DNA from: a virus
Taxonomy: Duplodnaviria > Caudoviricetes
DNA length: 50,685 nucleotides
Virus record (IMG/VR): IMGVR_UViG_3300033067_002100
Coordinates: 1-50,685 of that record
Reading direction: 5' to 3' (one strand)
The notes under the pieces: model-generated
The model's database searches: none
The model's input: the letters and a program-made list of their open reading frames with translations, nothing else
Told to the model about the DNA's origin: nothing
Part shown: positions 37,455-43,442 of the stretch, piece by piece
How positions within the stretch are numbered: position 1 is the stretch's first letter
Layout of the letters: each line of letters starts with the position of its first letter
Position numbers and translations under genes: made by a program

Positions 37455-37952
37455 TTACCAGGTCACCAAATTGGTCAGGTAATAATTTCCAATAGCGATC
37501 GCATCTGCCACGTCATCGGTAGCCGGTGTGAAGCCGTACTTATCCTGCACGTACTTGACCGCAGCCGCCTTCGTGTCTGGCACCCGGCCTCCGAACAAAC
37601 CATTCTGCCAAGTCGACGCCCCTATGTAGAGCCACAGGTTGAAGCCGCACGCCTCCCCAGCTGATTGCGCAATGCCCCGCCGCTGCCCGAGCGTGAGTGA
37701 CCCCTTTACGCTGCGAAAGCTCATCCAATGCTGTTCCAGTAGGCAAATGCGCTCACTCTCCGGATACTTCGCAAGGTAGGGTTCTACCAGCGGGCTAACC
37801 ACCTGCATGAGGCTGCGAAAGCTGTCTCCCTTGGCGGGCGAGTGCGCTACCAACTTTCCTTCCGCAAACAGTGCAACTCCAGCCGCTGCAGCAGGGTCAA
37901 TCACGAGTACGAGTTTGGGCGGCGGCAGCTTCGACTTAGTAACTTTCGACAT
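37455..37952 (-). CDS. RuvC-like Holliday junction resolvase
   Basis: LVIDPA..GVA, LLE, STW, K, DDVADAIAIG. Confidence 0.8.
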   Translation of the reverse strand: MSKVTKSKLPPPKLVLVIDPAAAAGVALFAEGKLVAHSPAKGDSFRSLMQVVSPLVEPYLAKYPESERICLLEQHWMSFRSVKGSLTLGQRRGIAQSAGEACGFNLWLYIGASTWQNGLFGGRVPDTKAAAVKYVQDKYGFTPATDDVADAIAIGNYYLTNLVTW

Positions 37953-38541
37953 CGAGCACCGAGTCAGCGAATCCTAAGTCTTCCTCGTGGTTGTGGAGGA
38001 TGTCTTGTACCTCTTCAGCGAAAGCCAAACCCGACTCGTCGACCCACACTGCGTCCTCGTCGCGCTCGACCAAGTAGGCAAAAGCAGTCTTGCCCTGAAA
38101 CTGTAAGCATAAGGTGCGCCGCGCTAGGTCTGCCGGTGCTAACTCAAGTTGCGTGGGAGTTAGTTCCGGAGACCGCTGGTTGACGTAGCTTGCTCGTTTA
38201 GTCGCGGTGAGGCGCAGTGCTTTGGCGCGCAACGCCCGGAGCCTGTCGTAGAGCACGCTTCGCTTTACGTTTAGCACCTTTGCGATTTTGCGCGGCGGCA
38301 TCTGCAAGAACAGCTCTGCTAGTTCCTGTTCACTCGGTAGCAGGTCAGGCATAGCCGTCGTGATTGCGTTCACGATGTATTGACGATCGAAGTTAATGAC
38401 CTTGGTGAACGAGTGGTAAGGCAGACAACCAGAGAGGCCAGCTGCGAGTTCAGGTTCTGTTTTAGCGTGGTTTCGCAGCCATTCAAGCGCCGCTTTGTCT
38501 TTGGAGAGTTTTACGGTTGGGTTGTTACTGTTGTTGGACAT
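37936..38541 (-). CDS. HTH protein (sigma70 region 4 / LuxR-like)
   Basis: LLPSEQELAEL...PRKIAKVLNVKRSVLYDRL. Confidence 0.6.
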   Translation of the reverse strand: MSNNSNNPTVKLSKDKAALEWLRNHAKTEPELAAGLSGCLPYHSFTKVINFDRQYIVNAITTAMPDLLPSEQELAELFLQMPPRKIAKVLNVKRSVLYDRLRALRAKALRLTATKRASYVNQRSPELTPTQLELAPADLARRTLCLQFQGKTAFAYLVERDEDAVWVDESGLAFAEEVQDILHNHEEDLGFADSVLDVESY

Positions 38542-39299
38542 GCATCGGGGGGTTCTCCTTCAGTAAGAATGGCTGGCTGCGCGCCAGGTACGTTGACAGC
38601 CGGGCTGCCCGCAGGAACACGGCTCCGATAAACCGCCTCCCGTTTCAGGATCTTGTGAATTGTACCGACTTCGATGCGCGTGTTGTTACTCGTGCGGAAG
38701 CCGCGGGTGTGGACAACATCCACTATGTTTCTCAGGGAAGCTCCGGAGGACCGTAGTTGATGACAAAGGCGGACCAAATCAGCGCCACGATCGTCAATGG
38801 CCAATGCTCCACCACCCACGGAACGAAACCCAGTAGCAGCTCTACCACCCCGAAAACTCCCTCGGCGTTTGATAGAGGCCGCCTTCGCCTGCTTCATTCT
38901 TCCTAACCATTCTGCACGCTGAAATTCGGCGACACTACCGAGCAACTGGCGAACCAAGTTCCCTGTGGGTGAATCCTCAAGCTTAACGGTAGCGGCCACG
39001 ACTTCCACACCGGCCGCGGTGAATTGGGCATAGAGCTGCTCTGACACGACGAGCTTACGTGCAAAGCGATCAAGACGATCGACCACCAAGCGCGTGAGTG
39101 AACCTTGAGAGGCCTCCGTCAACAGACGCGTGATTTCTTCTCGGTCGGCAGTCGTGCCCGTGACTGTCTCAGAAACCCATTCATCGATCTGAACATTGTT
39201 GTGCAGCGCCCAAGCCAAGATGGAAATGCGTTGCTGTTCGATACCATTGCCAGCTTCCTGGCCCTTATCGGAGATACGCATGTAGGCGACTGTTTTCAT
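38511..39299 (-). CDS. Serine recombinase (resolvase catalytic domain plus short recombinase domain)
   Basis: AYMRIS..Q..G.EQQ, DRLDRFAR, VAEFQR, G.F.GG....GF; start set at ATG39299 from promoter geometry. Confidence 0.9.
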   Translation of the reverse strand: MKTVAYMRISDKGQEAGNGIEQQRISILAWALHNNVQIDEWVSETVTGTTADREEITRLLTEASQGSLTRLVVDRLDRFARKLVVSEQLYAQFTAAGVEVVAATVKLEDSPTGNLVRQLLGSVAEFQRAEWLGRMKQAKAASIKRRGSFRGGRAATGFRSVGGGALAIDDRGADLVRLCHQLRSSGASLRNIVDVVHTRGFRTSNNTRIEVGTIHKILKREAVYRSRVPAGSPAVNVPGAQPAILTEGEPPDACPTTVTTQP

Positions 39300-39333
39300 G
39301 CTTCCATTGTAGCGCAATTGGAAACGTTGTCAA
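39300..39333 (-). promoter_or_regulatory. Near-consensus sigma70 promoter, leaderless geometry
   Basis: TTGACA-16 nt-TACAAT-6 nt-ATG. Confidence 0.75.
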
Positions 39334-39341
39334 ATAGATTA

Positions 39342-40292
39342 TTATCTTACATTGGACATTAGAATTTTATGCTTGATGTTGGTGAGTCCGGCTGCATGAA
39401 CGCCAGAGAATACGTACCAACCCTGCGGCCGCAAACGCACTATCCCCTCTGCTTCCAGTGCGCGCATGTATTGGGGCCTGGACAACTCAAGTGGCGCAAC
39501 TGCCTTGGCAGATAGCAGTCGTGACATCAGTCGCTGCTTCGTGATCTGCAGCTTCGCACCTTGCAGTCGGTACGAGATGTCGTCAGGAACCACCGTTGGC
39601 ATGTGATAACGAAAATGTTGGAGCGTGGGCGACTCTTCCCAAAGCTTAACGCCAGCGGCCGCGATGGCCCGATGCTTAGAGGTTGTCAGCGCCTTTCCAT
39701 CAGCGATGGCTAAAGTCGCGTCCCAGGCCACCTTAGGAAGAAAATGTCCGCGCGCATCGCAAAGCTCACTTGACCAGGTAGGACCCAAAAATCCTGCAAT
39801 GAGCCATTCCGGCGCCCCAACAGCACGCAACATACTTCCGTAGGCATCTTGTGGAAATGCGAACACGCCCACTCGCTCCCGCGGTACCCACATGAATTGA
39901 TTGGAGATGCGATGCCACGTAGCGTTGCGCAGCATTATGATCGGCTTGTAGTTGGGCGTGTGGTACTTCTGCGTGCGTTGATGGCGAAGCATTGCCACCA
40001 TAGTTCTGCACAGCGTTTCGTCTGAGTACTGCCCGTTGTCGTCAAGTACGCCGTAGCACCGAGCTGTAGTTGAGACCGGGGGTAGCGCAGGTTCACCCTC
40101 GATACCGAGCTGCCGCAGGAGTGTAGTCTTCCCTACCCCGGTCGCCGCAACGAAAATCGATTCCTCTCGGACTCGCAAATCAACGCGCTGAGAAATGTCG
40201 ATGATTGGGGCGGCAGAAGGAAAAGAGCGAACGATCTGCGCAATGTCGCTGAACGTCTTGTCAGACGGCAGGAGTGTCAGCTGGTTGGTCAA
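39342..40292 (-). CDS. P-loop NTPase-like hypothetical protein
   Basis: IFVAATGVGKTT Walker A; GVLDD candidate Walker B. Confidence 0.55.
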   Translation of the reverse strand: MTNQLTLLPSDKTFSDIAQIVRSFPSAAPIIDISQRVDLRVREESIFVAATGVGKTTLLRQLGIEGEPALPPVSTTARCYGVLDDNGQYSDETLCRTMVAMLRHQRTQKYHTPNYKPIIMLRNATWHRISNQFMWVPRERVGVFAFPQDAYGSMLRAVGAPEWLIAGFLGPTWSSELCDARGHFLPKVAWDATLAIADGKALTTSKHRAIAAAGVKLWEESPTLQHFRYHMPTVVPDDISYRLQGAKLQITKQRLMSRLLSAKAVAPLELSRPQYMRALEAEGIVRLRPQGWYVFSGVHAAGLTNIKHKILMSNVR

Positions 40293-40638
40293 CTGCTTTT
40301 TGCTCCTGATGTTCGTCGACCACTTTGCTTGCTTCGCGCATTAGGTAGAGCACCTTCTTCTTCCACTGCGAAGGCACTTCCGACGCTACCGCGTTGATGC
40401 AGCGGTTAAGGTTTTTCTCGACAGCCTGTTGTACAGGCGTTGAAAACTGGAGCGTTTCCACAACGTGGAGAAATGCAGCCGCGGCCTCCAGTACAGCCGT
40501 CTGCGCATAGGCGGCATCCGCAATCGCTTCCTCTTCGGTGTTCACGTCATTGAAACGATTCGCGTTTGAAAGAATGGGCGGATCGATCTTTACAGTAGGT
40601 GCAGGACTATTAACTTTCGTATCGTCAGGAGTAACCAT
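40261..40638 (-). CDS. Hypothetical protein
   Basis: Helical 125-aa ORF directly downstream of the RNA block. Confidence 0.6.
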   Translation of the reverse strand: MVTPDDTKVNSPAPTVKIDPPILSNANRFNDVNTEEEAIADAAYAQTAVLEAAAAFLHVVETLQFSTPVQQAVEKNLNRCINAVASEVPSQWKKKVLYLMREASKVVDEHQEQKAVDQPADTPAV

Positions 40639-40694
40639 TTGTGTCTCTCATTGTGTGCAAACAGACAAGTTTGTCTGGAATGGGTTACAAAAGC

Positions 40695-40790
40695 GTTTGC
40701 CGCTTGGATTCGAACCAAGTCCTGCGCGTTATCAGTGCGCTGTGCGACCAGCTGCCTTCTACGGAGGACTTACAACCACACTCCGGCAAA
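40695..40790 (-). ncRNA. tRNA-Ile(GAU)-like RNA with a 24-nt insertion in the D stem
   Basis: Acceptor TTTGCCG/CGGCAAA; T arm CTTGG-TTCGAAT-CCAAG; anticodon loop CT-GAT-AA; D loop AGCTGGTC; 96 nt minus 24 nt gives a 72-nt cloverleaf; no encoded CCA. Confidence 0.7.
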
Positions 40791-40801
40791 CAAACACTTG
40801 T

Positions 40802-40851
40802 CTCTCCAAGGAGTCACACCACTAGGGTCCGTAGAACCCGGCCAGGTGTCG
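40802..40851 (-). repeat. Structured RNA motif, copy B
   Basis: CGACACCTG-[GCCGGGTTCTACGGACCCT]-AGTGGTGTGACT-CCT-TGGAGAG. Confidence 0.65.
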
Positions 40852-40903
40852 GCCATGCTGCATGTACGTCAAAGACGGAACTAACAGCAGAAAACAGGGC
40901 TTA

Positions 40904-40945
40904 CTCTCCAGCCAAAGTCACACCACTCTCGCGAAGCAGGTGTCG
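40904..40945 (-). repeat. Structured RNA motif, copy A
   Basis: CGACACCTG-[CTTCGCGAG]-AGTGGTGTGACT-TTGGC-TGGAGAG. Confidence 0.65.
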
Positions 40946-40951
40946 CTCGGT

Positions 40952-41065
40952 TGGGCTCAGCGGGATTCGAACCCACGAGAGTAGCCAACCTGTGCCCCAC
41001 CAGGGGACAACTCTTGGTAGCGGGAGAAAACCCAGCGACGTCTTCTCGTGCTGGGACATGAACCC
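40952..41065 (-). ncRNA. 114-nt tRNA-like RNA with expanded D and anticodon domains
   Basis: Acceptor GGGTTCA/TGAGCCC plus A73; U8; T arm GTGGG-TTCGAAT-CCCGC; internal hairpins CCCAGC/GCTGGG and CCCC-TGGT-GGGG. Confidence 0.6.
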
Positions 41066-41100
41066 AGTGGCTTGACATCTTCGCCCTTCCCGCGACGTTT

Positions 41101-41382
41101 TTACTTATCAATCCCCAACCCCAGACGCAGTTTGCGTGCATAGTCGCGCATCTGCTCGCGAGTCATATCATCACTGTCGAATCCGATGTCCCACGCGAAT
41201 TGCTCAAGCTTGCGAGACTTCCTCACCAACTCTCTGTTCAGTTGCATTTCGAACTCGCGCACCTGTTGGAGGATTTGGTACTTTCCTGCGTACTGCTTAT
41301 ATGCTGCGTTTTTAGTTCTCAATCCTCGCAACCGTTGCTTGACTACTTCGGGAAGCTCCATCTCGTCGGGCAGCAACTTCAT
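41101..41382 (-). CDS. Basic helical hypothetical protein heading the RNA-block transcript
   Basis: 93-aa ORF preceded by TTGGTT-17 nt (ending TGA)-TAAACT-6 nt-ATG. Confidence 0.65.
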   Translation of the reverse strand: MKLLPDEMELPEVVKQRLRGLRTKNAAYKQYAGKYQILQQVREFEMQLNRELVRKSRKLEQFAWDIGFDSDDMTREQMRDYARKLRLGLGIDK

Positions 41383-41445
41383 GTTATCAGTTTATCATAA
41401 AACATTACAGCAACCAAACGTCGCCGACCAAAATCAGCAAATGGT

Positions 41446-42267
41446 ATGCCCCTAGTAGACATCAACCGACCCGGCATCATTGTCCGCAACGTGATAGACG
41501 AGCTTAAACGTTGGACAAAGCACTCTAGTGAAAACACCGAGCGCATCAACAACAAGTTCTACGAGCTCCCGGCCGCCTACCAGACATTCACGCACGGCAC
41601 GCAGCAGGAAGTCCCCAACCCATTCTATCCATCCGTGCCGACCGGATTTCTCGTTACGAACACGAGCGCCTCAACATCTCCAAGTATCTCGTTCACTCCA
41701 GTCACCCGCTCGGGGTTCTGTGGAATAACGGCAAACTTTGCACGCCCAGCCGGGGTTGTGGACCTGCTACGAGCGGCCACTCAATCAATACCGAGCGCAA
41801 CATCCACACCCATTCAATGGACTTCAGACGAATTGTCGCTCACCTTGGTAGGTACAACAGCCACTAGCGGCGCGTTCTCGTATGACTATACAACGACTAC
41901 GGGCACACCTCCGACGAATAGCAAAATCACCTGCCTATCCTCAGGGTTTGTATTGGTAACTGCCTCTGGTGGTTTCGCTGCGAATGCGACAGGGCTCCGT
42001 GAGTTCTGGTTAGTAAAGAACAACGCAACCACTCCGCGATGGGCGGATACATTGTACCAGTCGCCACCCGTAACTACGGACATTCGATTCAACCTTAGTG
42101 CTGTTATTCAGGTCACCGCTGGTGATTATCTGCAGCTGTATTGTTACCAGGATAGTGGTGGCGCGTTAAACACCCTTGCGGGCACAGTTTCGCGATTCCA
42201 AGCGCGATACGTAGATGTGCCGACAACATACTCAGGCACGGTGCAAGGTTATCTACTCGGCCCTTAG
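41446..42267 (+). CDS. C1q/TNF-like jelly-roll domain protein, probable tail tip/receptor-binding protein
   Basis: QSIPSATSTPIQW, KITC.SSG..LVTA, SAVIQVTAGDYLQLYCYQDSG pattern; Thr/Ser-rich; lone + strand gene. Confidence 0.6.
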   Translation: MPLVDINRPGIIVRNVIDELKRWTKHSSENTERINNKFYELPAAYQTFTHGTQQEVPNPFYPSVPTGFLVTNTSASTSPSISFTPVTRSGFCGITANFARPAGVVDLLRAATQSIPSATSTPIQWTSDELSLTLVGTTATSGAFSYDYTTTTGTPPTNSKITCLSSGFVLVTASGGFAANATGLREFWLVKNNATTPRWADTLYQSPPVTTDIRFNLSAVIQVTAGDYLQLYCYQDSGGALNTLAGTVSRFQARYVDVPTTYSGTVQGYLLGP

Positions 42268-43016: not shown

Positions 43017-43442
43017 TCATTCAAGGCATTTTGTTGCACTCATAACCAAAAGCTGGGTGAGTTCGGTTGTAACTCGTCTCCGCAGACTCACGGTTAGTCG
43101 CCCCCAGCTTCGTGTTTCGGGGTGCGTCGCCATAATGCCGTCTGGGCGATGGTCTAGCCCGAAGTAGTGTCCAAGTTCGTGAATGAAAACTGTGTAGAGT
43201 GTTGAGGGACTGAGACCGGGGCGGAGCGCAATGAGGTTACTGCGGCTGCCTCTTAGGTGGTAACCAACGGAATCGCGATCCGCAGGTCCAAATGCGTCGT
43301 CACTTATTACGATACGACGGCAGCGAGGACCGAATTTGCGCGCGACAACCACCCGGCTACTAACAACTGCGAAGTCGCGTAGAGCTTGTCTAATCACTAA
43401 GCGCTCCGAAGAATTGCCGCCGCAGAGTTGAAAGACCGTCAC
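43017..43442 (-). CDS. Metzincin (matrixin-like) Zn metalloprotease
   Basis: HELGHYFGLDH plus Met-turn GIM. Confidence 0.75.
   Translation of the reverse strand: MTVFQLCGGNSSERLVIRQALRDFAVVSSRVVVARKFGPRCRRIVISDDAFGPADRDSVGYHLRGSRSNLIALRPGLSPSTLYTVFIHELGHYFGLDHRPDGIMATHPETRSWGRLTVSLRRRVTTELTQLLVMSATKCLE

What the first reader, a model, noticed from the sequence alone, without database searches (positions are those of the whole stretch)
40640..41394. Candidate undescribed system: operon of expanded tRNA mimics, twin hairpin motifs and flanking orphan proteins
On the - strand a leaderless-type promoter precedes a basic 93-aa ORF. Then ~450 nt without a credible ORF contain, in order: a 114-nt tRNA-like RNA, motif copy A, motif copy B and a 96-nt tRNA-Ile-like RNA, followed by a 125-aa ORF and a P-loop ORF. 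Both RNAs keep fully paired acceptor stems (extendable to 8 bp) and TTCGAAT T loops while their D/anticodon sides are enlarged, which looks like selection on the tRNA elbow/acceptor shape rather than decay. Hypotheses (inference): decoys for tRNA-targeting defence nucleases or uncharged-tRNA sensors, RNase P/Z processing tags that release the intervening motif RNA, or tRNAs matured by removing inserts.
Basis: partly seen in the sequence, partly recalled or inferred. Interest (0 to 1): 0.85.

Follow-up and report, generated by a model that had tools for sequence, protein, structure and literature searches.

The report
Phage tRNA-like RNAs flanking a widespread pseudoknot motif
A river phage carries two oddly enlarged tRNA-like genes bracketing two copies of a small pseudoknot RNA that recurs, almost letter for letter, in hundreds of unrelated phages and is not in the RNA family catalogue searched.

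Summary
On the minus strand, between a 93-aa and a 125-aa ORF, lie two tRNA-shaped elements: T1 (40952-41065) and T2 (40695-40790). ARAGORN calls neither, and both score below Rfam's tRNA threshold. Both keep perfect 7-bp acceptor stems and GGTTCGAATCC T arms, and each carries a 22-38-nt surplus just after the acceptor strand. Between them are two copies of a motif.

The new result concerns that motif. It is a conserved H-type pseudoknot (CGACACCUG loop pairing with GGUGU) followed by a hairpin with a GAGAG(A) loop. It gave no Rfam 15 match. It occurs in 70 viral, 26 bacterial-genome and at least 118 metagenome stretches, giving 169 distinct model hits with covariation. No protein is shared across these contexts. 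It is often packed tightly between genuine tRNAs or placed just after capsid genes.

T1 and T2 occupy the positions and spacings that real tRNAs hold next to the motif elsewhere. My best reading is a degenerate tRNA-array-type RNA cluster whose tRNA-like ends act as RNase P/Z processing handles around the motif RNA. The motif's own function is unknown; a ribozyme-like or machinery-binding role is my guess. The flanking proteins are orphans and are not part of any conserved system. No transcription data were found.

The parts
41389..41397 (-). Extended -10-like TGATAAACT, ending 7 nt upstream of the ORF93 ATG. Possible leaderless-type promoter in the 63-nt divergent gap.
   Evidence: Read from the sequence. 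The consensus promoter scan found 0 sites, so this is inference only.
41101..41382 (-). ORF93, a basic 93-aa orphan protein and the first gene of the minus-strand unit.
   Evidence: pI 9.64. No Pfam or PHROG family. No IMG/VR relative. Atlas best score 0.89 with no family.
40952..41065 (-). T1, a 114-nt tRNA-like element. It has a 7-bp acceptor stem, an extra 9-bp hairpin (41031-41055), a weak D-like arm, an arm with a possible CUGGUGG loop (GGU at 40999-41001), a 14-nt variable region and a T arm (40960-40976).
   Evidence: Rfam tRNA 21.0 bits, under the gathering score of 29. The MFE fold keeps the acceptor stem, extra hairpin and T arm. ARAGORN calls tRNA-Thr(GGU) only after 26-38 nt are removed starting at positions 8-31.
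40898..40948 (-). Motif copy A. P1 encloses the CGACACCUG loop (40937-40945). The pseudoknot partner lies within AGUGGUGUGACU (40916-40927). The P3 hairpin GGCU/AGCC carries a GAGAG loop (40904-40908).
   Evidence: Model R1 scores 42.7 bits, E 3e-10, over 40888-40951.
40797..40855 (-). Motif copy B. CGACACCUG is at 40843-40851, followed by a 19-nt insert with its own hairpin. AGUGGUGUGACU is at 40812-40823. P3 CUUG/CAAG carries a GAGAGA loop (40801-40806).
   Evidence: Model R1 scores 50.0 bits, E 3e-12, over 40786-40857.
40695..40790 (-). T2, a 96-nt tRNA-Ile(GAU)-like element. It has a 7-bp acceptor stem (8 bp with G-1:C73), an extra hairpin (about 40763-40783), a second D-like arm, an anticodon arm with loop CUGAUAA (GAU at 40731-40733) and a T arm (40703-40719).
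   Evidence: Rfam tRNA 23.2 bits, under the gathering score of 29. ARAGORN calls tRNA-Ile(GAU) after 22-31 nt are removed starting at positions 7-28.
40261..40638 (-). ORF125, an acidic orphan protein downstream of the RNA cluster.
   Evidence: No family. No IMG/VR relative.
39342..40292 (-). 316-aa P-loop ORF (Walker A AATGVGKT). Generic AAA/STAND-like ATPase by language-model neighbours only.
   Evidence: No Pfam or PHROG family. No IMG/VR relative.

Best explanation
The locus is a small non-coding RNA cluster of the phage tRNA-array type, embedded in a minus-strand operon of a complete 50.7-kb tailed phage.

Its conserved payload is two copies of a 45-75-nt RNA. This RNA is an H-type pseudoknot: a short stem P1 closes the loop CGACACCUG, and ACACC in that loop pairs with GGUGU in the invariant AGUGGUGUGAC(U). 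A hairpin, P3, follows, with loop GAGAG(A). The RNA is widespread in unrelated phages of many bacterial phyla.

The two flanking elements derive from tRNAs: T1 is Thr-GGU-like and T2 is Ile-GAU-like. Each has gained an extra hairpin between the acceptor stem and the D arm. Each keeps intact the acceptor/T-arm minihelix, which by established knowledge is the minimal substrate of RNase P, RNase Z and the CCA-adding enzyme.

Inferred mechanism: the operon transcript is cut by host tRNA-processing enzymes after T1 and before T2, releasing the motif RNAs. This is what would happen where the motif sits between genuine tRNAs in other phages. The motif then acts on its own or on a universally conserved host machine.

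Shown here: the structure, conservation and tRNA-junction geometry of the motif. Inferred: the processing, and any function of the motif.
For: The window is a complete virus record with terminase, portal, SU10-type capsid and PolA genes.

Motif abundance:
- A looser pattern with 18 specified bases gave only 17 stretches. None of the 17 shows the second block on reading, and the model's best score on them is 14.8 bits.

Motif structure:
- Model R1 finds 120 matches (95 distinct) in 98 sources and 119 matches (95 distinct) in 100 further sources.
- In P3, 5 of 5 pairs change on both sides and 92.3% of cells are paired.
- The P1 closing pair is GC 84, CG 5, AU 2, other 4.
- The covariation score is 0.367, against 0.104 in shuffles (0 of 500 reach it) and at most 0.088 when the partners are slid.
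- In the pseudoknot, among 167 parsed of 169 distinct hits, pair 1 is AU 163, CG 1, UA 1, AC 2, and pair 5 is CG 165, AU 2.

The motif is not in Rfam 15.

No linked protein: 98 loci fall into 54 groups, and the most widely shared family is in 5 of them.

tRNA linkage:
- Of 160 unique instances, 19 lie within 25 nt of a same-strand tRNA and 34 within 300 nt. None lies within 300 nt of an opposite-strand tRNA.
- Gaps are 5-17 nt after the tRNA 3' end, and 7-22 nt from the GAGAG loop to the next tRNA 5' end.
- In the cultured Phaeobacter phage MD18 the motif fills the 80-nt gap between two annotated tRNA-Leu genes.
- The window has the same gaps: 6 nt after T1, and 10-11 nt before T2.

T1 and T2 are non-random. 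ARAGORN calls them tRNA-Thr(GGU) (154 of 175 called variants) and tRNA-Ile(GAU) (128 of 131) once the surplus after the acceptor strand is removed in silico.
Against: - There is no evidence of transcription or processing. No RNA run holds the stretch, and the DNA contigs are identical to the window.
- No homologue of T1 or T2 was found, so selection on them is untested.
- Fold energies are only modestly better than shuffles: T1 z -1.61 (15 of 200 shuffles fold as well) and T2 z -2.35 (3 of 200). T2's MFE breaks the T arm.
- T1 lacks GG in its D-side loops.
- Most motif instances (141 of 160) are not within 25 nt of a tRNA, so tRNA-type processing cannot be required for the motif's function.
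- The exact-pattern searches force the two blocks to be invariant, so their conservation is overstated. Only the extra tandem copies sample real variation.
Confidence: 0.5

Rival explanations
1. T1 and T2 are dead tRNA genes: pseudo-tRNAs disrupted by insertions, left over from a former tRNA array. Only the motif copies are functional.
For: Neither is called by ARAGORN or reaches the Rfam threshold. D arms are weak; T1 has no G18G19 equivalent and its anticodon stem needs a mismatch or bulge. T2 has discriminator C73, where E. coli tRNA-Ile has A73 by my recollection. The phage has no other tRNA. Other phage arrays next to the motif also hold odd, low-scoring tRNAs.
Against: Both acceptor stems (7 of 7 pairs) and both T arms are flawless. 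Both surpluses lie at the same place and fold as hairpins. The junction spacings to the motif are kept. With only two elements and no homologues this remains weak evidence.
Confidence: 0.3
2. The motif is a new class of self-cleaving ribozyme, or another autonomous RNA. It cuts polycistronic phage transcripts independently of the host, including at tRNA or tRNA-like boundaries, much as HDV-like theta ribozymes do at tRNA 3' ends.
For: It is compact: the shortest match is 56 nt including 10-nt flanks (L024). About 27 positions are near-invariant, many of them unpaired. An insert of variable length is tolerated at one site only. It occurs in hosts from many phyla, with no linked protein. It forms tandem arrays of up to 4. 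It begins 5-7 nt after tRNA 3' ends in 6 of 8 upstream junctions. Theta ribozymes are reported beside phage tRNA 3' ends (PMC10879173, passages read).
Against: There is no match to any Rfam ribozyme family at E up to 10. I could not map the motif onto the HDV-like fold, which needs a P3 hairpin between the P1 strands that the short variants lack. No cleavage data exist. No conserved nucleotide marks a cleavage site at either edge.
Confidence: 0.2
3. The motif is a cis-acting signal for a conserved host machine: an RNA polymerase antiterminator or terminator, an RNase site, or a 3'-end stabiliser. It sets expression levels after highly expressed genes and within long untranslated arrays.
For: It sits 9-14 nt after capsid-gene stop codons in two unrelated capsid families: SU10-type (a cluster of 22 loci) and P22-type. 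It also follows SSB-type genes. A U-rich tail is present: 41 of 95 have TTT within 10 nt after P3. It is always co-oriented with neighbouring tRNAs.
Against: The upstream genes fall into 42 unrelated clusters. The conserved GAGAG loop and pseudoknot are unlike intrinsic terminators, and the terminator scan lists no site at the window copies. The U tail is absent in more than half of the instances.
Confidence: 0.2
4. First reader's alternatives. Either T1 and T2 are decoys for tRNA-targeting defence nucleases or sensors, or they are tRNAs that become functional after their inserts are removed.
For: Phage tRNAs can neutralise tRNA-cleaving defences (PMC11464382, title and start of abstract in the listing only). 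Removing the surplus in silico restores an ARAGORN-callable tRNA.
Against: By established knowledge, no splicing route for inserts at this position is known in bacteria. T1 lacks a clean 7-nt anticodon loop, which an anticodon nuclease would need. No defence or counter-defence gene was recognised beside the cluster in the Pfam and PHROG scans.
Confidence: 0.07

Closest known systems
T4 RNAC and RNAD (species 1 and 2 RNAs) in the T4 tRNA gene region
   Same: Small stable RNAs of unknown role, transcribed from a phage tRNA region together with tRNAs (PMC3014915 and PMC9697503, passages read).
   Different: No sequence or structural relation was tested or is claimed. The present motif occurs in hundreds of unrelated phages and also away from tRNAs.
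HDV-like theta ribozymes next to phage tRNAs
   Same: Small pseudoknotted RNAs placed within a few nucleotides of phage tRNA 3' ends (PMC10879173, passages read).
   Different: I could not map the motif onto the HDV-like nested double pseudoknot. There is no Rfam HDV-family hit. The motif also lies upstream of tRNAs and after capsid genes. No catalysis has been shown.
tRNA-like processing handles (mascRNA of MALAT1; tRNA-linked hairpins of murine gammaherpesvirus 68), recalled and not checked in a paper here
   Same: A tRNA-shaped element without decoding function recruits RNase P or Z to define the ends of a neighbouring RNA.
   Different: Those are eukaryotic or animal-virus systems. Here the handles are enlarged tRNA derivatives in a bacteriophage, and processing is only inferred. 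The Rfam mascRNA match to T1 is 17 bits against a threshold of 42.5.
Canonical tRNA genes and phage tRNA arrays
   Same: Acceptor stem, T arm with GGTTCGAATCC, an anticodon-like arm, and position in a co-transcribed cluster.
   Different: Lengths are 96 and 114 nt, with an extra hairpin after the acceptor strand and weak D arms. Both are below the Rfam threshold and are not called by ARAGORN.
Pistol ribozyme and other H-type pseudoknot RNAs (topology recalled)
   Same: A hairpin loop pairs with a downstream strand, and a second hairpin follows.
   Different: The closing helix that pistol needs was tested and is absent: flank complementarity equals the permuted controls. There is no Rfam pistol hit.

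Membership tests
tRNA (Rfam RF00005 / ARAGORN) | Score at or above the curated gathering score (29 bits), or an ARAGORN call | tested here: not met
   T1 scores 21.0 bits and T2 23.2 bits. ARAGORN finds 0 genes in the window.
tRNA (Rfam RF00005 / ARAGORN) | 7-bp acceptor stem and 5-bp T stem with a T-loop of the TTCRANY type | tested here: met
   Both elements meet it. The detector gives 2 hits in the window against a mean of 0.08 in 200 shuffles.
tRNA (Rfam RF00005 / ARAGORN) | D arm of 3-4 bp with G18G19, and a 5-bp anticodon stem with a 7-nt loop | tested here: inconclusive
   T2 has the loop CUGAUAA on a 4-bp stem plus an A.C mismatch, and two D-like hairpins containing GG. T1 has only a possible CUGGUGG loop with a mismatch or bulge, and no GG.
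tmRNA (one-piece or permuted) | ARAGORN or Rfam tmRNA call with a tag reading frame | tested here: not met
   None in the window. The same tools do find a tmRNA in locus L028.
Known self-cleaving ribozymes in Rfam (hammerhead, twister, twister-sister, pistol, hatchet, HDV-like) | Match to the family covariance model | tested here: not met
   No such family appears at E up to 10 on 1401 nt or on 186 nt of the window, nor at E up to 0.1 on six other motif loci.
HDV-like / theta ribozyme | Nested double pseudoknot (P1, P1.1, P2, P3, P4) with a catalytic C in J4/2 | tested here: not met
   Mapping by hand on the 85 parsed instances failed. The shortest variants have only 4-5 nt between the pseudoknot strands beyond P1, leaving no room for P2 and P3. 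This was done by hand, not with a descriptor search.
Intrinsic terminator | GC-rich hairpin followed directly by a U run | tested here: inconclusive
   41 of 95 distinct instances have TTT within 10 nt after P3. The terminator scan lists no site at the window copies.
attP or host-tRNA fragment | Identity of the 3' half to a host tRNA gene | tested here: not met
   The 23-nt 3' halves of T1 and T2 have 0 exact matches in genomes of 185,579 species. Only exact identity was tested.
The motif family itself (model R1, built here) | P1 closing pair, CGACACCUG loop, pseudoknot to GGUGU, P3 with a GAGAG loop; R1 score far above background | tested here: met
   The window copies score 50.0 and 42.7 bits. 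Background is 8.2 bits in the window and 14.8 bits in 179 kb of control loci.

The most novel reading that the evidence does not exclude
The CGACACCUG/GGUGUGAC-GAGAG pseudoknot is a new class of autonomous phage RNA. The leading version is a self-cleaving ribozyme that phages of many bacterial phyla use to cut their transcripts without host help, for example beside tRNAs, tRNA-like handles and capsid genes. A second, weaker version: its invariant UGGUG, complementary to the common tRNA 3' end CACCA and internally masked by the look-alike ACACC, makes it a switch that binds tRNA 3' ends. That second version is weakened by 2 of 167 natural variants that keep the pseudoknot through ACACA/UGUGU but lose the match to CACCA.
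Probability: 0.2. Interest if true: 0.9.

Novelty: new variant of a known kind. Interest (0 to 1): 0.7.

Why it matters
Small RNAs whose unpaired nucleotides stay invariant across hosts from cyanobacteria to planctomycetes, and which have no partner protein, have in the past turned out to be ribozymes, riboswitches or ligands of core machinery.

It gave no Rfam 15 match. It sits inside phage tRNA arrays and after capsid genes. It is present in a cultured phage, Phaeobacter phage MD18, so it can be tested directly.

The window adds an unusual arrangement. Enlarged tRNA derivatives that keep only the processing-competent minihelix stand where real tRNAs stand elsewhere. If confirmed, this would be a bacteriophage example of tRNA-like processing handles.

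Tried and rejected
**Rfam.** The whole window at gathering thresholds gave 0 matches. Permissive scans of 1401 nt and 186 nt listed only sub-threshold tRNA hits and chance hits. Six other motif loci listed only tRNAs, a tmRNA and anti-hemB.

**Relatives of the phage.** ORF125, ORF93, the P-loop ORF and PolA have no relative in IMG/VR. blastn of the locus against 50,697 phage records found no match.

**T-loop-plus-motif pattern scan.** 17 stretches were returned. None shows the motif's second block, and the model's best score on them is 14.8 bits.

**Host-tRNA or attP idea.** 0 exact matches.

**Extra closing helices.** I looked for a pistol-like P2 or an aptamer-type closing stem between the 5' flank, the end of the insert and the 3' tail. 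Observed mean runs of 4.33, 4.05 and 4.36 equal the permuted controls of 4.29, 4.01 and 4.34. Rejected.

**HDV-like mapping by hand.** Rejected.

**Linked protein partner.** None found. Upstream genes fall into 42 clusters with no common family.

**Other expanded tRNA-like elements beside the motif.** Only low-scoring ordinary-length tRNAs, long-variable-arm tRNA-Pro genes, and isolated 112-133-nt detector hits that I did not confirm.

**Sequencing runs.** No RNA holder is listed. The four runs laid are DNA contigs identical to the window and give no variation.

**Nested-only folding of the motif copies.** z is about 0. This is uninformative because pseudoknots are not modelled.

**Literature.** Four full-text searches found no description of the motif: topic words, four literal sequence strings, and theta-ribozyme terms. 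The candidate lists of PMC10690425 (10,006 phage RNAs) and of the theta-ribozyme paper may contain the motif.

Full report
**What the window is.** The window is a whole IMG/VR virus record of 50,685 bp, rated complete. It encodes a terminase, a P22-like portal, an SU10-type major capsid protein, a family A DNA polymerase, a PD-(D/E)XK nuclease and a RepB-type primase. It is therefore a tailed bacteriophage. Structural genes lie on the plus strand and replication or early genes on the minus strand. Near-identical DNA occurs in contigs of seven coded runs from two studies, some labelled riverine metagenome. The host is unknown: the only terminase relatives in bacterial genomes are Brevibacillus regions at 25-29% identity.

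**Checking the observation.**
- ORF93 (41101-41382) is basic, with pI 9.64. It starts a transcription unit, because the gene on its other side (41446-42267, plus strand) diverges from it.
- The sigma-70 consensus scan found no promoter. I read an extended -10-like TGATAAACT ending 7 nt before the ATG, and no Shine-Dalgarno sequence. A leaderless start is plausible but remains inference.
- Between ORF93 and ORF125 (40261-40638) lie about 460 nt. The only minus-strand ORF there has 86 aa and a Trp/Cys-rich product that looks spurious to me.
- My detector requires a 5-bp T stem, a TTCRANN-type loop and a fully paired 7-bp acceptor stem 40-134 nt apart. It finds exactly two sites in the window, both here and on the same strand. 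In 200 dinucleotide shuffles the mean was 0.08, and 2 of 200 reached two sites.

**The two tRNA-like elements.** T1 (40952-41065, 114 nt) and T2 (40695-40790, 96 nt) are not called by ARAGORN. They score 21.0 and 23.2 bits on Rfam's tRNA model, whose gathering score is 29.

To locate the surplus I removed every possible single internal stretch of 4-65 nt in a script and asked ARAGORN again.
- T1: 175 variants were called, out of about 3,255 by the loop bounds. Of these, 154 were tRNA-Thr(GGU), and all 154 had lost 26-38 nt beginning at positions 8-31.
- T2: 131 variants were called, out of about 2,139. Of these, 128 were tRNA-Ile(GAU), mostly after losing 22-31 nt beginning at positions 7-28.

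Both elements are therefore tRNA derivatives carrying an extra hairpin at the same place, between the acceptor 5' strand and the D arm. In T1 this is a 9-bp hairpin with loop AGAAGA, which the MFE fold retains. In T2 it is a GGAG/CUCC hairpin with a GG-containing loop.

T2 has a proper CUGAUAA loop. T1 has only a possible CUGGUGG loop on a stem with a mismatch or bulge, a 14-nt variable region, and no GG in either D-side loop. T1 is thus unlikely to form a canonical elbow or to decode.

The 3' halves of both are absent, as exact 23-mers, from genomes of 185,579 species. They are not copies of a known host tRNA such as an attachment site would carry.

No homologue of either element was found, because the phage has no close relative in the collections searched. 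Whether their stems are under selection therefore could not be tested.

**The twin motif is the conserved part.** The two blocks shared by the copies, CGACACCTG and AGTGGTGTGACT, separated by 5-30 nt, occur in:
- 70 IMG/VR stretches;
- 26 stretches of bacterial genomes, including cyanobacteria, planctomycetes, gamma- and alphaproteobacteria, a spirochaete, an acidobacterium, a verrucomicrobium and a myxobacterium;

A pattern with three fewer specified bases returned only 17 stretches. None of them shows the second block on reading, and the model scores them at most 14.8 bits. Chance therefore cannot explain the 70.

Every instance also carries a feature that was not part of the search pattern: a hairpin with loop GAGAG(A), or rarely CAGAG, directly after the second block.

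I built a covariance model from 22 instances, leaving out the window copies. It scores the window copies at 50.0 and 42.7 bits, against 8.2 bits for the next best place in the window. It finds 120 matches in 98 sources and 119 matches in 100 further sources, 169 distinct in all.

**Structure of the motif.**
- A short stem P1 closes the 9-nt loop CGACACCUG. Its closing pair is G-C in 84, C-G in 5, A-U in 2 and unpaired in 4 of 95 distinct sequences. The outer P1 pairs are paired in only about half of the sequences.
- ACACC in that loop pairs with GGUGU downstream, giving an H-type pseudoknot. Those bases were fixed by the search. Extra tandem copies found by the model give four double changes that keep pairing (A-U to C-G once, A-U to U-A once, C-G to A-U twice) against two single changes to A.C, among 167 parsed sequences. 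A further ACACA/UGUGU variant in L162 I saw only by eye.
- An insert of 4 to more than 40 nt, often a hairpin of its own, is tolerated only between P1 and the second block.
- Hairpin P3 covaries strongly: 5 of 5 pairs change on both sides and 92.3% of cells are paired.
- For the whole structure the covariation score is 0.367. Shuffles give 0.104 (0 of 500 reach the observed value), and slid partners give at most 0.088.
- Wobble pairs in P3 and strict co-orientation with neighbouring tRNAs point to an RNA rather than a DNA signal.
- No further helix closes the motif.
- The tail after P3 is moderately U-rich: 41 of 95 have TTT within 10 nt.

**Is the motif known?** Nothing in Rfam 15 matches it, even at E up to 10 on a 186-nt stretch. 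Full-text searches by topic words and by literal sequence strings found no description. Supplementary lists of large phage-RNA screens could not be opened and may contain it.

**Context of the motif.**
- The 98 loci of the first three collections fall into 54 groups that share no protein at 60% identity or more. The most widespread protein family is present in only 5 groups. No partner protein travels with the motif.
- Upstream genes fall into 42 unrelated clusters. These include an SU10-type capsid gene (a cluster of 22 loci), a P22-type coat gene, SSB and Gp2.5-like genes. After capsid genes the motif starts 9-14 nt past the stop codon and is often repeated two to four times.
- tRNAs form a second recurrent context. 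Of 160 unique instances, 19 lie within 25 nt of a tRNA on the same strand and 34 within 300 nt. None lies within 300 nt of a tRNA on the opposite strand.
- The packing is tight. From the tRNA 3' end to CGACACC the gaps are 5, 5, 5, 6, 7, 7, 11 and 17 nt. From the GAGAG loop to the next tRNA 5' end they are 7-22 nt, which leaves only a few nucleotides beyond P3.
- In the cultured Phaeobacter phage MD18 the motif fills the unannotated 80-nt gap between two tRNA-Leu genes.
- Four large phage records each hold one copy, and a partial SU10-like record holds three.

**What the window's arrangement means.** T1 is followed after 6 nt (ACCGAG) by motif A. The GAGAG loop of motif B is followed after 10-11 nt by T2. 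T1 and T2 thus stand exactly where genuine tRNAs stand beside the motif in other phages. What they retain is a 12-bp coaxial acceptor/T-arm helix with an intact T loop. By established knowledge of tRNA-processing enzymes, this is the minimal substrate of RNase P, RNase Z and the CCA-adding enzyme.

My best-supported reading is therefore a degenerate tRNA-array-type cluster in which the tRNA-like elements define the ends of the intervening motif RNA. It is inference: no RNA data exist for this phage. The alternative that T1 and T2 are merely dead tRNA genes cannot be excluded with two elements and no homologues.

The flanking proteins have no recognisable family. They are not conserved beside the motif anywhere else. 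I therefore do not count them as part of a system.

**What the motif does.** This remains open. Four properties point to an RNA that acts by itself or on universal machinery: compactness, invariant unpaired nucleotides, tolerance of inserts at one site only, and spread across phyla without a partner protein.
- I give about 0.2 to a new self-cleaving ribozyme. The analogy is with the HDV-like theta ribozymes placed at phage tRNA 3' ends (PMC10879173, passages read). The fold is not HDV-like, and no known ribozyme model matches.
- I give about 0.2 to a cis signal for transcription, processing or stability.
- One detail is worth noting. The invariant UGGUG is complementary to CACCA, which by my recollection is the commonest bacterial tRNA 3' end, and its internal partner ACACC resembles that end. 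Two natural variants keep the pseudoknot but lose this complementarity, which weakens the idea.
- The closest precedent for small RNAs of unknown role in a phage tRNA region is T4 RNAC and RNAD (PMC3014915 and PMC9697503, passages read).

**Verdict.** The main value of the finding lies in the motif: a widespread, strongly conserved phage pseudoknot RNA that gave no Rfam 15 match and that can be tested in a cultured phage. The window shows it in an unusual setting, between two enlarged tRNA derivatives.

Noticed in passing
window 37936-39317 (-): The serine recombinase looks split. A 268-aa ORF has Resolvase and partial Recombinase domains (38511-39317). It overlaps by 31 nt a 201-aa ORF with no family (37936-38541), which could be its C-terminal part in another frame. 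This suggests a frameshift or a broken integrase.
   Followed up: partly
window 41446-42267 (+): A lone plus-strand gene sits inside the minus-strand early region. Its C-terminal part matches virion structural or tail protein PHROGs (phrog_13989, E 1.6e-14). It ends tail-to-tail with a minus-strand ORF and lies about 2 kb from the recombinase. It may be a moron or a host-range cassette.
   Followed up: partly
window 43017-43442 (-): A 141-aa ORF has weak, sub-threshold matches to zinc metallopeptidase families over residues 79-106, probably an HEXXH-type site.
   Followed up: no
L162:1-600 (-), L147:11742-11813, L178:451-544: Natural variants of the motif with ACACA/UGUGU in place of ACACC/GGUGU. 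L162 also has a degenerate copy without the GAGAG hairpin, next to tRNAs scoring barely above threshold (33.9 and 32.4 bits).
   Followed up: partly
L010:2399-2617 (-): Two phage tRNA-Pro genes of 87 and 90 nt, with long variable arms and weak D stems, lie just downstream of a motif copy. Aberrant tRNAs seem common in these arrays.
   Followed up: partly
L046:12608-12740 and L050:7965-8097: A 133-nt element with a perfect 7-bp acceptor-like stem and a TTCGAGT T arm, not called by ARAGORN, lies about 1.1 kb downstream of a motif copy. It could be another enlarged tRNA-like RNA or a chance hit.
   Followed up: no
L028:5682-7299: In a Burkholderiales-like stretch filed as viral, the motif lies 17 nt after a tRNA-Met and about 850 nt before a tmRNA gene and an anti-hemB sRNA. 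It may mark the edge of an integrated element.
   Followed up: no
window 40650-40672 (-): A 7-bp hairpin (CAGACAA/UUGUCUG, 3-nt loop) followed by UUUG lies between T2 and the ORF125 start. It is not listed by the terminator scan.
   Followed up: no
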